From IMG/VR virus record IMGVR_UViG_3300045975_000444, positions 1 to 64,000 of that record: a stretch of DNA of 64,000 nucleotides. The stretch is one strand, 5' to 3'. Made by a program: the position numbers and the translations under genes. This DNA is from a virus. The notes under the pieces are model-generated. The model was not told the DNA's origin. It saw nothing but the letters and a program-made list of their open reading frames with translations, and searched no databases. Of this stretch, positions 54,915 through 60,006 are shown in pieces (positions within the stretch are counted from its first letter, which is position 1; every line of letters begins with the position of its first letter).

Positions 54915-55880
54915 TCAAGGCGCGATCGTCGCCGGGTCGGCGGTGCAGTCGGCCGGGAGCGTGCAGCTCCCACAGTCGGTCGTCCGCCGCCCGGTGCCGG
55001 TGAAGGTCGTGCCGCTACAGGTGCAGGCGGAGTTGTCGACCCCGCACGAGCAGATCTTGCAGAGCGCGGTGTCGGCGAGGACCGCCGCCTCCCAGCCACA
55101 GTCGTCGAAGTTGCCGGCCGCGGTCGAGCCGTGGCCGCCGGTCCCGATCCCGAACTTGGTCGCCGAGGCGTCGCTCAGGGTTGCGCTGGTCGCCGCGGTG
55201 GCGACGTTGAGGGTCGACGACCCGGTCCACCTGTTCAGGCGCATGGTCGTCGCGCCCGAGGCACTCCGCCCGCGCCAGGCAATGAAACTCCAGCCGGTCG
55301 GCGTGGCCGACCAGATGTTCGCGATGGCCGGCGTCACCGCGTTCTCGCTCCCACCGAGGTCCTCGGCGCCGGTGTTGACCAGGAGATAGAGATCGTAGCC
55401 CGCTCCCGTCTGCCACTTGCCCACGAGGGTCGAGTTCGAGGCAACCGAGGACAGGTTGACCCAACACCAGACCGTCAGGTTGTCCGAGGCCGGGGAAGCC
55501 AGATCGGTCGTGGCCGGAGCTTGGAGAGCTTGCGTGCTCGTGAACTGAACCGACTGAGCACCCGCGATGAACGTCGACGTGGAGTAAGTCGGGCTCCCTA
55601 CGTTGACGAGGTCGACCGCCGTCGCGCCCGTGCAGGCATCGTTCGCATTGCCCTCCATGGGCCAGCAGTGGTCGATGAGCGTGGCCCAGTTCCCCGGAGG
55701 CGTCGGGGTCGGGGTCGGGGTTGGGCTGGGCGTCGGGGTTGGGGTCGGGCTAGGCGATGGAGTCGGCGTCGGCCCCTCGTCGGCGATCAGGACCGTCGAG
55801 TCGGAGCACTCGGCGCCGCGCGCGATGACCGCCAGCGCGAGCAGCGCGAGCAGCGCGAGCGAGATCGCGAGCCCCCTCAA
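54915..55880 (-). CDS. signal-peptide LamG/concanavalin-like protein, Cys-rich
   Basis: TTG start coupled to the upstream stop; MRGLAISLALLALLALAVIARGA; PT linker; WPMEGNAND, LTVWCWVN; eight Cys in the C-terminal tail. Confidence 0.8.
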   Translation of the reverse strand: MRGLAISLALLALLALAVIARGAECSDSTVLIADEGPTPTPSPSPTPTPTPSPTPTPTPTPPGNWATLIDHCWPMEGNANDACTGATAVDLVNVGSPTYSTSTFIAGAQSVQFTSTQALQAPATTDLASPASDNLTVWCWVNLSSVASNSTLVGKWQTGAGYDLYLLVNTGAEDLGGSENAVTPAIANIWSATPTGWSFIAWRGRSASGATTMRLNRWTGSSTLNVATAATSATLSDASATKFGIGTGGHGSTAAGNFDDCGWEAAVLADTALCKICSCGVDNSACTCSGTTFTGTGRRTTDCGSCTLPADCTADPATIAP

Positions 55881-56044
55881 TTCAGGTCCTCGGGTAGGCG
55901 GGCGATCCGGTTCGAGTAGCGGGCCAGCTCCTCGTCGGTCAGGTGCTCTTCGAGGCGCCGCCCGCAGATGAGGCACGCCGAGACGACGGTCCGGCCGTCC
56001 CTTTCGCCGAGCTTCTCGAACTCGCCTGGGCATTCCCTTCGCAT
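55877..56044 (-). CDS. small Zn-ribbon protein
   Basis: CPGEF...CLICG...H. Confidence 0.5.
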   Translation of the reverse strand: MRRECPGEFEKLGERDGRTVVSACLICGRRLEEHLTDEELARYSNRIARLPEDLN

Positions 56045-56082
56045 CGATCGACCTCGCGCGGCCGGCCTGACCGCCGAGTCGG

Positions 56083-58566: not shown

Positions 58567-58570
58567 CGGC

Positions 58571-59377
58571 TCACCCGGTGATCTGCGCGGTGCAGTTGAG
58601 ATAGCCGTCGACCATGGCCGAGGCGCCGGCCGTCACCTCCATGGAGATGCAGTTGTTCGACCCGAGCGTCTTCGGGGCGTTGGTGCCTGCTCCAACAGAG
58701 AAGGCGGTCGTCGCGATCGCCGAGGTCGAGCCGTCACAGGTGAGCGCCCCCGAGCACGCCCCGGTGCAGACCTTGGCCGTCGACGTCGCCGTCTGGCCGA
58801 TGGTCATCAGGCAGTCGAGGTTATTGATCGTCCCCGAGCGGACCGGCGTCCGGCACTTCGCCTCGGTGTCGCAGATCCGCCCGCCAGGGGCGACGTAGAA
58901 CTTCCCACCCGCGGTGAGGTTGGTCGTGGATAAGTCGGCCGTGAACGAGACTACCGAGGGATAGGGCGACGGCGGCGCTACCCCGGCGGCGATCCAGTCG
59001 AGGTCGCAGCCGGCTTGCGCGCCCGTCGAGGAGAGCACCTCACCGGCGGCTCCCTTCGGGAGGCGGACGATGTTGGTCCCGTCGTAGCAGAAGAGATCGC
59101 CGTCGACGGCGGTCGCGGTGTCGAAGAGGGCATTCAAGCTCGCCTGCCTCGACGTCTGTCCGGTGCCGCCCAAGGTGAACGGAATGGGCGACGTGATCCC
59201 GATCGTGTCGACGTCGACCCGACCGAGCGGCGACTGGAGGTCTTGAGCGCGCGCCGGGGCGGGCGCGAGCAAGAGGACCGACGAGAAGGAGAGCGCGGCG
59301 ACAACCGCGCCCGATGGCCTGGTCGTCGCCCACACCCGAAGTCCCTGGAGGACCTGCGGTCGGCAATGCTCATTCAT
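58571..59377 (-). CDS. signal-peptide fibre-like protein, Cys-rich
   Basis: VVAALSFSSVLLLAPAPARA; fibre motifs PFTLGGTG and GDLFCYDG..RLPKGAAGEVL. Confidence 0.75.
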   Translation of the reverse strand: MNEHCRPQVLQGLRVWATTRPSGAVVAALSFSSVLLLAPAPARAQDLQSPLGRVDVDTIGITSPIPFTLGGTGQTSRQASLNALFDTATAVDGDLFCYDGTNIVRLPKGAAGEVLSSTGAQAGCDLDWIAAGVAPPSPYPSVVSFTADLSTTNLTAGGKFYVAPGGRICDTEAKCRTPVRSGTINNLDCLMTIGQTATSTAKVCTGACSGALTCDGSTSAIATTAFSVGAGTNAPKTLGSNNCISMEVTAGASAMVDGYLNCTAQITG

Positions 59378-60006
59378 GGGCCTGGCTCCTCGGGCTCGGT
59401 CGGCGCGAACACGATCGAGCCCCGGTGATACGCCTCGGCGGCGCCCGCGTTCTGGACCCGGACGGCGAAGAGCCCGCCCTCGGGCCAGTCGACCGGGAAC
59501 TTCGAGACCCCGGTCTTGACGGCGCCCGTGATCGTGAAGGCACAGCTCGTCGGCGCGCCGTCCTGGAAGACCGTGTAGGTGACCACCCCGGCGCCGGGCT
59601 CAGCCGACGAGTGCATGTGGAGTTCGAGGAGCGTGCCCGAGGCCAAGGCGCCCTCGGCCTCGGCGCGGGCCGCGCGCATGCCGCCTGGGCCGATGTAGAC
59701 CTCCTCGCCAGGGCGGAGCGTCTGCGGCGTGCCGATCATGTAGAGCTGCCTCGTGCCGGCGCCGAGAGGCGGCGGGACGGCGACGATCGGCTCCTCGACG
59801 TCGATGATCGAGGCGTAGCTCGGGCGGTCGCGCGAGTAGAGGAACGACCGGGCCGTCGCCACGATCGCGGGCGCGCCCCCGTCGAGAGCGACGATGGAGG
59901 GTACCACGATGCTCCCGGCGATTTGGGACACGCCCGCGACCAGCTCGGCGACCTCTGACCCGCCGCCGCCGACCGTCCGAATCGCGCCGGTCCGGATGTT
60001 CGACAC
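59374..60006 (-). CDS. head decoration/fibre-like protein without signal peptide
   Basis: Directly after the capsid; C-domain similar to 58571-59377. Confidence 0.6.
   Translation of the reverse strand: MSNIRTGAIRTVGGGGSEVAELVAGVSQIAGSIVVPSIVALDGGAPAIVATARSFLYSRDRPSYASIIDVEEPIVAVPPPLGAGTRQLYMIGTPQTLRPGEEVYIGPGGMRAARAEAEGALASGTLLELHMHSSAEPGAGVVTYTVFQDGAPTSCAFTITGAVKTGVSKFPVDWPEGGLFAVRVQNAGAAEAYHRGSIVFAPTEPEEPGP

What the first reader, a model, noticed from the sequence alone, without database searches (positions are those of the whole stretch)
54915..60006. Virion-type fibre, tailspike and lectin genes carrying export signal peptides and many cysteines, inside the head operon
Seen: between the major capsid and the head-tail adaptor, three genes start with Sec-type signals (LLLAPAPARA, LALTLAAPAWA, LLALAVIARGA). 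Their bodies have phage fibre motifs (PFTLGGTG; GDLxxxDG..RLPKG..GEVL), a tailspike-type GAxxDGxTDD plus beta-helix, and a LamG domain. They are Cys-rich: 10 Cys in mature 58571-59377 and 8 in the last ~45 aa of the LamG protein. Known: tailed-phage particles assemble in the reducing cytoplasm and their fibres normally lack signal peptides. Inference: these proteins are exported and disulfide-folded, then either dock on virions at lysis or act as released or surface depolymerase/adhesin. Either would be an unusual two-compartment assembly or host-surface system.
Basis: partly seen in the sequence, partly recalled or inferred. Interest (0 to 1): 0.85.

Follow-up and report, generated by a model that had tools for sequence, protein, structure and literature searches.

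The report
Exported spike, fibre and lectin genes in phage head operon
An uncultured soil phage carries, between its capsid gene and its head-tail adaptor gene, three tightly coupled late genes for a fibre-like protein, a tailspike-type beta-helix and a lectin-like protein; all three start with bacterial export signals and are rich in cysteines, so they very probably fold outside the cytoplasm where the particle is built, and what they do there is still open.

Summary
On the minus strand, between the major capsid gene (60115-61488) and the head-tail adaptor (53313-54341), three genes (268, 827 and 321 aa) begin with n-h-c signal-peptide segments. The third gene starts at TTG 55880, not at ATG 56033.

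Every full-length relative found keeps a signal-like N-terminus although the sequence there drifts. The mature parts hold 3.7% Cys, against 0.5% in the other late proteins (p 2.5e-21). The 827-aa protein folds as a right-handed beta-helix (pLDDT 81). It matches phi29 gp12 and the Pam1 tailspike (Z 28), and secreted alginate epimerases and lyases almost as well (Z 25-26). The third protein belongs to a Laminin_G_3 family with an invariant eight-Cys tail.

A distant viral contig keeps the same cassette in the same place. Its capsid protein is only 21% identical, while the cassette proteins are 31-39% identical. No promoter or terminator was found inside the cassette, and start and stop codons overlap.

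Export is likely (about 0.85). I favour action on host surface glycans around lysis (0.45) over docking on virions at lysis (about 0.27). This scan has noted signal-bearing phage spikes on many other genomes. I found no paper describing it.

The parts
60115..61488 (-). Major capsid protein, 457 aa. Upstream flank of the cassette.
   Evidence: PF05065 E 1e-11; phrog_10.
59374..60090 (-). 238-aa protein (or 210 aa if it starts at GTG 60006). No signal peptide, 1 Cys, function unknown. It is the first gene of the conserved block.
   Evidence: GC3 0.90. Homologue in L002 at 7870-8478, 27% identity, same position. No Pfam, PHROG, NCBIfam or PDB match. Start is ambiguous.
58571..59377 (-). 268-aa fibre-like exported protein. 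Signal peptide is residues 1-44 (nt 59246-59377), with cut ARA|QDLQ. The C-terminal half is all-beta. The mature part has 10 Cys.
   Evidence: ATGA overlap and GAGGAG. Homologues P0099 (82%) and P0100 (68%) keep the n-region and signal. The L002 470-aa protein shares the C-terminal 160 aa at 39% identity and has its own signal. ESM Atlas neighbours are all viral. The AF2 model is poor, pLDDT 47.7.
56083..58566 (-). 827-aa exported tailspike-type protein. Signal is residues 1-23 (nt 58498-58566). Residues 24-166 are a Cys-paired N-module plus a low-confidence stalk. Residues 167-715 form a right-handed beta-helix. Residues 720-827 form a beta-sandwich C-domain. The mature part has 26 Cys.
   Evidence: Sequence. 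PF12708 E 1.5e-4, below the Pfam cut-off. 80 HMMER relatives. AF2 pLDDT 81. Foldseek and VIA-align matches to tailspikes and to secreted beta-helix enzymes. The C-domain also occurs on other signal-bearing proteins, P0005, P0012, P0013, P0041 and P0078.
55877..56044 (-). 55-aa ORF with 3 Cys and no signal. Its stop overlaps the start of the lectin gene.
   Evidence: Frame plot and sequence. No family match. Not seen in L002.
54915..55880 (-). 321-aa exported lectin-like protein. It has a signal or signal anchor (residues 1-23, nt 55812-55880), a short conserved strand, a PT-rich linker, a Laminin_G_3-like body and an invariant 8-Cys C-terminal knot.
   Evidence: TTG start. An identical public gene call, P0084, and relatives P0085 to P0089. 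Alignment A2 with invariant Cys. PF13385 in 3 of 6 members. 16 viral loci.
54653..54901 (-). 82-aa protein with one TM segment and a coiled-coil tail.
   Evidence: ATG with GGGGGGA upstream. Hydrophobic segment VVGILAIFVLALAILGV.
54376..54651 (-). 91-aa protein with one TM segment.
   Evidence: GC3 0.95. Hydrophobic segment FTAMFIFGGAVIWATGGL. No significant family.
53313..54341 (-). Head-tail adaptor. Downstream flank of the cassette.
   Evidence: phrog_442 E 1.9e-10. The L002 homologue aligns from residue 55 of the long ORF, so the start is probably at the Met at 54341.

Best explanation
The 268-aa, 827-aa and 321-aa genes form a conserved late-operon cassette whose products leave the cytoplasm through the host Sec pathway. 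Signal peptidase probably cuts the first two. The third may stay membrane-anchored. They fold with disulfide bonds in the periplasm or at the cell surface.

There they bind, and probably cut, the host's surface polysaccharide from outside around the time of lysis. The beta-helix would be the glycan-cutting or glycan-binding part. The LamG-like lectin and the fibre-like protein would be binding parts. The likely gain for the phage is easier release, and less loss of progeny or superinfection on infected cells and debris, by destroying or masking the receptor.

Shown: the gene structure, the conserved signals, the Cys bias, the folds, the synteny and the coupling to late genes. Inferred: export itself, the disulfides, any enzymatic activity and the role.
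For: - Signals with a positive n-region, an 11-18-residue h-region and AxA-type ends are present on all three proteins.
- The signals are kept in every full-length relative while their sequence drifts. This holds for P0002 to P0020 of the beta-helix family, for P0099 and P0100, for P0085, P0086 and P0088 and the viral loci, and for the syntenic L002 proteins.
- Cys is 3.7% in the three mature proteins and 0.50% in the 24 other late-strand proteins (Fisher p 2.5e-21). The 2838-aa tape measure has none.
- The Cys count is even in the two mature proteins with a clear cut site (10 and 26).
- The cassette looks co-expressed with late genes. Overlaps are ATGA and TTGA, one gap is 4 nt, and no promoter-like or credible terminator-like site lies in 53000-63600.
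- The beta-helix is as close to secreted or periplasmic glycan enzymes (AlgE4, PL6 alginate lyases, RbmB, AlgG; Z 24-26.5) as to spikes.
- In L002 the beta-helix starts about 15 residues after the signal, with no stalk or anchor. Between the two phages the C-terminal (binding) domains are conserved and the N-terminal modules are not.
- A separate signal-less tail-tip set follows the tape measure: a 314-aa gene and a 2030-aa gene with a weak CBM_4_9 hit.
- WceF of Pantoea is a published exported enzyme with a tailspike fold (PMC7949094, listed).
Against: - No trained signal predictor was available and there is no experiment.
- No catalytic residues are identified, so the beta-helix may only bind.
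- The cassette is better conserved than the capsid protein (31-39% against 21% identity) and lies between head and neck genes, the place where head or neck fibres are encoded.
- The best single structural match is the phi29 neck appendage gp12 (Z 28.3).
- In this phage the 827-aa protein has a conserved Cys-paired N-module and a 140-residue stalk, as anchored appendages do.
- A free enzyme needs neither.
- The host and its envelope type are unknown.
Confidence: 0.45

Rival explanations
1. Two-compartment assembly. The three proteins are true virion appendages (head or neck fibres, spike and lectin). They are exported, fold with disulfides outside the cytoplasm, and dock onto cytoplasm-built particles only when lysis mixes the compartments.
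For: - The genes sit between the capsid and head-tail adaptor genes, and this place is kept in L002 together with a signal-less partner gene (238 aa here, 202 aa there).
- The cassette is better conserved than the capsid protein.
- The best fold matches are the phi29 neck appendage and the Pam1 tailspike.
- Atlas neighbours are viral.
- The layout is N-module, stalk, then head domain.
- From my own knowledge: P22 tailspikes can be added to heads in vitro, so late docking is physically possible.
- Earlier notes of this scan report the same pattern on phages where all spikes carry signals.
Against: - No docking domain is identified.
- N-terminal modules are not conserved between the two syntenic phages.
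- The proposed shared C-domain between the cytoplasmic 238-aa protein and the exported ones is not supported: BLAST E 0.07 and hhalign probability under 6%.
- The phage has a separate signal-less tail-tip set.
- No virion proteomics exist.
- A later check recorded in this scan put the same bold reading on other DNA at 30 in 100.
Confidence: 0.27
2. Lysogenic-conversion cargo (morons). These would be surface or secreted proteins made from the prophage to change the lysogen's envelope or adhesion, lodged in the late operon as lom and bor are in lambda.
For: - The phage is temperate by gene content: integrase PF00589 E 1.7e-23.
- It carries at least four more signal-bearing proteins elsewhere: 14072-14470, a trypsin-like protein at 15122-16597, 16613-17053, and genome 80670-82085.
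- The LamG-Cys-knot gene sits at another place (between portal and scaffold) in a second phage lineage, which is the behaviour of a mobile gene.
Against: - No promoter-like or terminator-like site of its own.
- Start and stop codons overlap those of late genes.
- Composition and GC3 match the neighbours.
- The whole block is conserved in a very distant relative.
Confidence: 0.12
3. The proteins are not exported. The hydrophobic N-termini would be cytoplasmic oligomerisation or membrane-tether segments, or start-codon artefacts.
For: SignalP was not run. The 268-aa protein has an unusually long n-region (21 residues). The h-region of the third protein is long enough (18 residues) for a membrane anchor.
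Against: - The n-h-c pattern with AxA ends is conserved while the sequence is not.
- Independent public gene calls use the same starts.
- The Cys bias is strong.
- No SD-plus-start site just behind the signals could give signal-less forms.
Confidence: 0.08

Closest known systems
Phage beta-helix tailspikes and neck appendages (phi29 gp12, cyanophage Pam1 tailspike, HK620 and Sf6 tailspikes)
   Same: Right-handed parallel beta-helix of about 550 residues with the N-terminal cap motif GAxCDGxTDD. VIA-align Z is 28.3 (3suc) and 28.1 (7eea), and Foldseek E is about 1e-8. phi29 gp12 is attached at the neck, and this gene lies next to the neck genes.
   Different: Those proteins have no signal peptide and are assembled in the cytoplasm (my own knowledge). 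They carry a known particle-binding N-domain. No sequence-level match to any cultured phage was found. Here there are 26 Cys and a C-terminal Cys-containing beta-sandwich.
Exported bacterial glycan enzymes with a tailspike-like fold (Pantoea WceF, PMC7949094; Vibrio RbmB, 9ozl; Azotobacter AlgE4; periplasmic AlgG; PL6 alginate lyases)
   Same: Beta-helix fold (Z 24-26.5), an export signal, and action on the cell's own exopolysaccharide outside the cytoplasm.
   Different: They are encoded in bacterial polysaccharide loci, not in a phage late operon. They have no fibre-like or lectin partners. The enzymatic activity of the phage protein is untested.
Phage-encoded exported proteins that protect progeny or change the envelope (T5 Llp, lambda Lom and Bor; my own knowledge), and the signal-peptide genes of Porphyromonas phages (PMC10367356)
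   Same: Phage genes with host export signals whose products act at the envelope. Some lie inside structural operons.
   Different: Those are small lipoproteins or outer-membrane proteins, not spike-, fibre- or lectin-type proteins. They are usually independently expressed morons.
Laminin_G_3 (PF13385) lectin-like domains on phage and bacterial surface proteins
   Same: Family members P0087 to P0089 carry PF13385. The domain is a ConA-like beta-sandwich body.
   Different: This family adds an invariant 8-Cys C-terminal knot, CRICSCGxDGxxCxC...CGxCxLP, and a signal peptide. The window's own protein does not reach any Pfam threshold.

Membership tests
Sec/SPase I signal peptide | Positively charged n-region, hydrophobic h-region of about 7-15 or more residues, and small residues at -3 and -1 | tested here: met
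   268 aa: net +2 n-region, h-region AVVAALSFSSVLLLA, cut ARA|Q. 827 aa: MRTCGRRR, LLAALALTLAA, AWA|T. 321 aa: n-region and h-region are met, but the cut site is ambiguous, VIA|R or R at -3. This is a rule-based script and reading, not SignalP.
Sec/SPase I signal peptide | The signal is conserved as a feature in homologues while its sequence drifts | tested here: met
   All complete full-length relatives have it. By a strict rule, 51 of 78 of all HMMER hits have it.
Sec/SPase I signal peptide | Experimental export and cleavage | not testable with these tools
   Needs PhoA fusions or N-terminal proteomics.
Tat signal peptide | Twin-arginine motif Z-R-R-x-F-L-K with a mildly hydrophobic, longer h-region | tested here: inconclusive
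   GRRRLL is present in the 827-aa protein only. The signal is short (23 aa) with a strongly hydrophobic h-region, and the cargo is Cys-rich, which all favour Sec.
Bacterial lipoprotein (SPase II) | Lipobox [LVI][ASTVI][GAS]C at the cut site | tested here: not met
   None of the three has a lipobox. GAEC in the third protein has E at -1.
Pectate-lyase-like beta-helix (PF12708 / tailspike fold) | Pfam model match above the gathering score | tested here: not met
   22.1 bits against a cut-off of 27, E 1.5e-4.
Pectate-lyase-like beta-helix (PF12708 / tailspike fold) | Right-handed parallel beta-helix structure | tested here: met
   AF2 pLDDT is above 90 over most of residues 167-827. Z is 24-28 to many beta-helix structures. 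Foldseek E is 1e-8 to 1e-11.
Virion tailspike or appendage | Particle-binding N-terminal domain, trimer, presence in virions | not testable with these tools
   The N-terminal 24-166 is modelled below pLDDT 50. No multimer prediction and no proteomics were available. No match to cultured phages.
Laminin_G_3 (PF13385) | Pfam model match | tested here: inconclusive
   The window's own protein has no hit. 3 of 6 aligned family members hit, best E 2.8e-15. Identity to those members is 27-32%.
Phage fibre N-terminal domain (Mtd_N type) | Pfam or PHROG match of the 268-aa protein | tested here: not met
   No family at E up to 10. There is only an ESM-Atlas lead, score 0.85 to a Mtd_N cluster.
Moron (independently expressed accessory gene) | Own promoter and terminator, deviant composition, patchy presence among relatives | tested here: not met
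   No such sites. GC and GC3 match the neighbours. The block is conserved in L002. The scan covers sigma-70-type consensus only.

The most novel reading that the evidence does not exclude
The three proteins are genuine head- or neck-attached appendages of a long-tailed phage. They are exported by Sec, fold with disulfides outside the cytoplasm, and dock on the finished particle only at lysis. A tailed phage would then be assembled in two cellular compartments. The signal-less 238-aa protein, or the adaptor, would be the docking site.
Probability: 0.27. Interest if true: 0.9.

Novelty: new variant of a known kind. Interest (0 to 1): 0.6.

Why it matters
Textbook assembly of tailed phages takes place wholly in the cytoplasm. 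Phage depolymerases are thought to reach the outside only as parts of the particle or by lysis.

A conserved late-operon cassette of spike-, fibre- and lectin-type proteins built for Sec export implies one of two things. Either the phage works on its host's surface glycans from outside before or at lysis, or it finishes its particles outside the cytoplasm.

Either would change how such genes are annotated. Calling them 'tail fibre' on sight would often be wrong. It would also change how host range is predicted from them.

The family is common in soil viral contigs, so the question is general and not a single oddity. This scan has noted the same trait on many other phage genomes. I found no paper that describes it.

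Tried and rejected
SEARCHES THAT FOUND NOTHING USEFUL
- The capsid protein against GenBank phages and viral contigs gave no match.
- The 827-aa and 321-aa proteins against GenBank phages gave no match. The 268-aa protein gave one weak hit to an unannotated uncultured phage.
- The word-based protein search with the 827-aa protein found nothing. The full HMMER search was needed.

TOOLS NOT AVAILABLE
That each pair shares a contig is inferred from equal contig lengths only.
- The ESM Atlas does not hold the 321-aa, 372-aa, 238-aa or 210-aa sequences.

SHARED C-DOMAIN IDEA
- A C-terminal domain shared by the 238-aa, 268-aa and 827-aa proteins was not supported. BLAST E was 0.07 or worse, and hhalign probability was 5.8% or less.
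- The AF2 model of the 268-aa protein was too poor to search with (pLDDT 47.7).

HOST
- No tRNA genes.
- Integrase hits in Actinomycetota are generic, about 30% identity.
- Only 3 weak beta-helix hits in 301 Actinomycetota genomes (one of them, G084, is an unpublished genome, and no claim here rests on it).
- The only genome-collection hit for the Cys-knot is a phage-like contig binned with a Gaiellales MAG. That is no proof of host.
- No endolysin or spanin was recognised, so the envelope type stays open.

OTHER
- No start codon with an SD right after the signals, so signal-less isoforms are unlikely.
- Contigs of a soil RNA library (X7) cover all of 50000-64000. DNA carry-over cannot be excluded, so I do not count this as expression.
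- The metagenome scan returned only the L002 phage again.
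Full report
WHAT THE DNA IS. The window is the first 64 kb of an 83,295-bp linear viral record that CheckV rates 93% complete. GC is about 69%. The stretch occurs in at least ten soil metagenome runs. A GC3-based gene call shows one long minus-strand late module from about 74.1 kb down to 30 kb. 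Its recognisable parts are:
- a protease/scaffold-like gene, 61518-63422;
- the major capsid protein, 60115-61488 (PF05065 E 1e-11);
- the head-tail adaptor, 53313-54341 (phrog_442);
- a tail tube-like gene and two chaperone-like genes;
- a 2838-aa tape measure;
- a 314-aa gene and a 2030-aa tail-tip gene (weak CBM_4_9 hit).

The phage also has an integrase. Nothing in it matches cultured phages.

THE OBSERVATION. Between the capsid and adaptor genes lie eight tightly packed genes.
- The first (59374-60090) has no signal and one Cys.
- The next is the 268-aa gene. Its ATG overlaps the previous stop, with GAGGAG upstream.
- After a 4-nt gap comes the 827-aa gene.
- After 38 nt comes a 55-aa ORF.
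- The stop of that ORF overlaps the TTG start (55880) of the third signal-bearing gene.
- Two small one-TM genes follow, and then the adaptor.

The frame plot leaves that frame above 55880, and a public gene call is identical to my 321-aa protein (P0084).

All three N-termini have a positive n-region, an 11-18-residue hydrophobic core and AxA-type ends. The third is ambiguous between a cut after VIA and an uncleaved anchor.

The mature proteins hold 10, 26 and 13 Cys, which is 3.7% in total. The 24 other late-strand proteins hold 0.50% (odds ratio 7.7, p 2.5e-21), and the 2838-aa tape measure has none. No other late-strand protein has such an N-terminus.

ARE THE SIGNALS REAL? A full HMMER search of 1.84 billion representatives with the 827-aa protein gave 80 hits. 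Every full-length relative with a complete N-terminus begins with a signal-like segment of unrelated sequence (P0002-P0004, P0006-P0011, P0014-P0016, P0018-P0020). These relatives range from low-GC to high-GC sources.

The 268-aa protein has relatives at 82% and 68% identity. Both keep the long n-region and the signal. The lectin-like protein has relatives at 45-46% identity with textbook signals such as MRAIRGIAALLLLLAAPARA|GD.

Conservation of the feature without conservation of the sequence, together with the Cys bias, is what true export signals look like. I could not run SignalP. I put export at about 0.85.

WHAT THE PROTEINS ARE.

The 827-aa protein. With a 26-row alignment it gives a good AlphaFold model (pLDDT 81, and above 90 over most of residues 167-827). 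The signal forms a helix. Residues 24-166 are a low-confidence stalk. A roughly 550-residue right-handed beta-helix follows, and then a beta-sandwich at 720-827.
- Foldseek's top PDB hits are the HK620 and Sf6 tailspikes. Its top viral-model hits are tailspikes and a pre-neck appendage.
- VIA-align gives Z 28.3 to phi29 gp12 and 28.1 to the Pam1 tailspike. It also gives Z 24-26.5 to AlgE4, PL6 alginate lyases, RbmB and periplasmic AlgG.
- The fold therefore cannot tell a virion spike from a secreted glycan enzyme.
- Just behind the signal, a small Cys-paired module (xEFGP..F.R.P.PGS..L.C..P.VLAQDxGD...C) is shared with P0005, P0002, P0009 and P0018.
- The C-terminal sandwich is a mobile module. 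It is also found on short signal-bearing proteins: P0005 has no helix at all, and P0041 is only signal plus this domain.

The 321-aa protein. It belongs to a family in which 3 of 6 members match Laminin_G_3. All members share an invariant eight-Cys tail, CRICSCGxDGxxCxC...CGxCxLP.

The 268-aa protein. It matches no model. Its nearest ESM-Atlas clusters are all viral, and its C-terminal half is predicted all-beta.

CONTEXT IN RELATIVES. One viral contig is syntenic (L002 = IMGVR_UViG_3300032274_000001, 72.9 kb, GC 65%). After its capsid gene and a glycosyltransferase / glycosyltransferase / methyltransferase-like group, named by eye from their translations only, it has five genes in the same order:
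- a signal-less 202-aa homologue of the 238-aa protein;
- a 470-aa signal-bearing protein whose last 160 residues are 39% identical to the 268-aa protein;
- a signal-bearing beta-helix;
- a signal-bearing LamG-Cys-knot protein;
- the adaptor.

The two capsid proteins are only 21% identical, the adaptors 27% and the cassette proteins 31-39%. The cassette is therefore old and kept, not a recent insertion.

Inside 53000-63600 there is no sigma-70-like promoter and no credible terminator. A second lineage of high-GC viral contigs carries the signal-bearing LamG-Cys-knot gene between portal and scaffold, followed by a small two-TM protein. That lineage includes a phage-like contig binned with a Gaiellales MAG. 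At least that gene therefore moves between head-module positions. Many other viral beta-helix genes found by the cap motif also begin with signals, and some lie a few kb behind a tape measure.

HOW IT MOST LIKELY WORKS. The proteins are made with the late genes, cross the membrane by Sec, and fold with disulfides outside the cytoplasm. What follows has two serious candidates.

I favour action on the host's surface glycans from outside, to help release or to destroy or mask receptors so that progeny are not lost on debris (0.45). The reasons are these.
- Between the two syntenic phages the C-terminal binding-type domains are conserved, and the N-terminal modules, where virion anchors normally sit, are not. 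The L002 helix follows its signal almost directly.
- The fold equals that of exported bacterial glycan enzymes, with WceF as a published case (PMC7949094).
- The phage has a separate signal-less tail-tip set.

The rival is docking on the head or neck at lysis (about 0.27). It is supported by the place between capsid and adaptor, by the high conservation, by the signal-less partner gene, by the phi29 gp12 match and by the stalked layout of the 827-aa protein.

Two weaker rivals remain. A lysogenic-conversion role (0.12) fits the integrase and the other signal-bearing genes of this phage, but not the lack of own signals and the tight coupling. Non-export (0.08) is unlikely. No SD-plus-start site behind the signals would give cytoplasmic isoforms.

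COMPARISON WITH WHAT IS KNOWN. Tailspikes and fibres of cultured tailed phages lack signal peptides (my own knowledge). The papers I could find mention:
- signals on phage endolysins, spanins and lipoproteins;
- envelope-modifier candidates in Porphyromonas phages (PMC10367356);
- sortase substrates and outer-membrane proteins of huge phages (bioRxiv 10.64898/2026.10.24.761521).

None describes signal-bearing spikes or fibres. The Tunturi phage paper does not mention signal peptides or proteomics.

This scan has noted the trait on many other genomes: 128 notes in at least 119 genomes. A later check there put the docking reading at 30 in 100. The present case differs in three ways. It is a long-tailed phage. 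The cassette lies in the head-neck part of the operon. A complete signal-less tail tip is present.

LIMITS. Contigs of a soil RNA library cover the whole region, but DNA carry-over is not excluded.

Noticed in passing
window 30377-31402 (-): A second, shorter HK97-type capsid homologue (341 aa, PF05065 E 5.3e-7) lies at the far end of the late strand, about 29 kb from the main capsid gene.
   Followed up: partly
window 14072-17053 (+): A cluster of further signal-bearing proteins near the integrase. It holds a 132-aa protein with a lipobox-like LLASGC and a glycine-zipper stretch, a 491-aa trypsin-like peptidase (PF00089 E 4.8e-12, 11 Cys) and a 146-aa protein with 8 Cys. These may be lysogeny-expressed envelope proteins.
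   Followed up: partly
L033 16670-18085 (-) = genome 80670-82085, outside the window: A 471-aa protein with signal MRLRVLLALAAALAAGTSYA|QTP and a roughly 150-residue Pro/Thr-rich C-terminal tail. A 29%-identical signal-bearing homologue lies in the syntenic phage (L053 4970-6355).
   Followed up: partly
window 40647-49163 (-): The 2838-aa tape measure protein has no cysteine at all. It is the extreme of the Cys-poor cytoplasmic late proteins.
   Followed up: yes
L002 3247-7305 (+): In the syntenic phage, four ORFs lie between the capsid gene and the exported cassette. Their translations look like an ATP-grasp-like protein, two family-2-type glycosyltransferases and a methyltransferase. I named them by eye only and did not scan them. 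The window's phage has no homologue of them. They could glycosylate virion or exported proteins.
   Followed up: no
L039, L041, L043, L045, L046, L047, L050 and L035 (a contig binned with a Gaiellales MAG): A second high-GC phage lineage carries the signal-bearing LamG-Cys-knot gene between portal and scaffold. A 185-aa six-Cys protein without signal precedes it, and a 72-aa two-TM protein follows it.
   Followed up: partly
window 54376-54901 (-): Two adjacent small genes (82 and 91 aa) lie between the lectin gene and the adaptor. Each has one TM segment flanked by coiled-coil-like stretches. They are absent from the syntenic phage. They could be holin-like or membrane partners of the exported proteins.
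   Followed up: no
window 55877-56044 (-): A 55-aa ORF with three Cys, translationally coupled to the lectin gene.
   Followed up: partly
window 50000-64000: Contigs of a soil metatranscriptome library (X7) cover the whole late region at 95% identity or more, with depth like that of DNA runs. This is either expression or DNA carry-over.
   Followed up: partly
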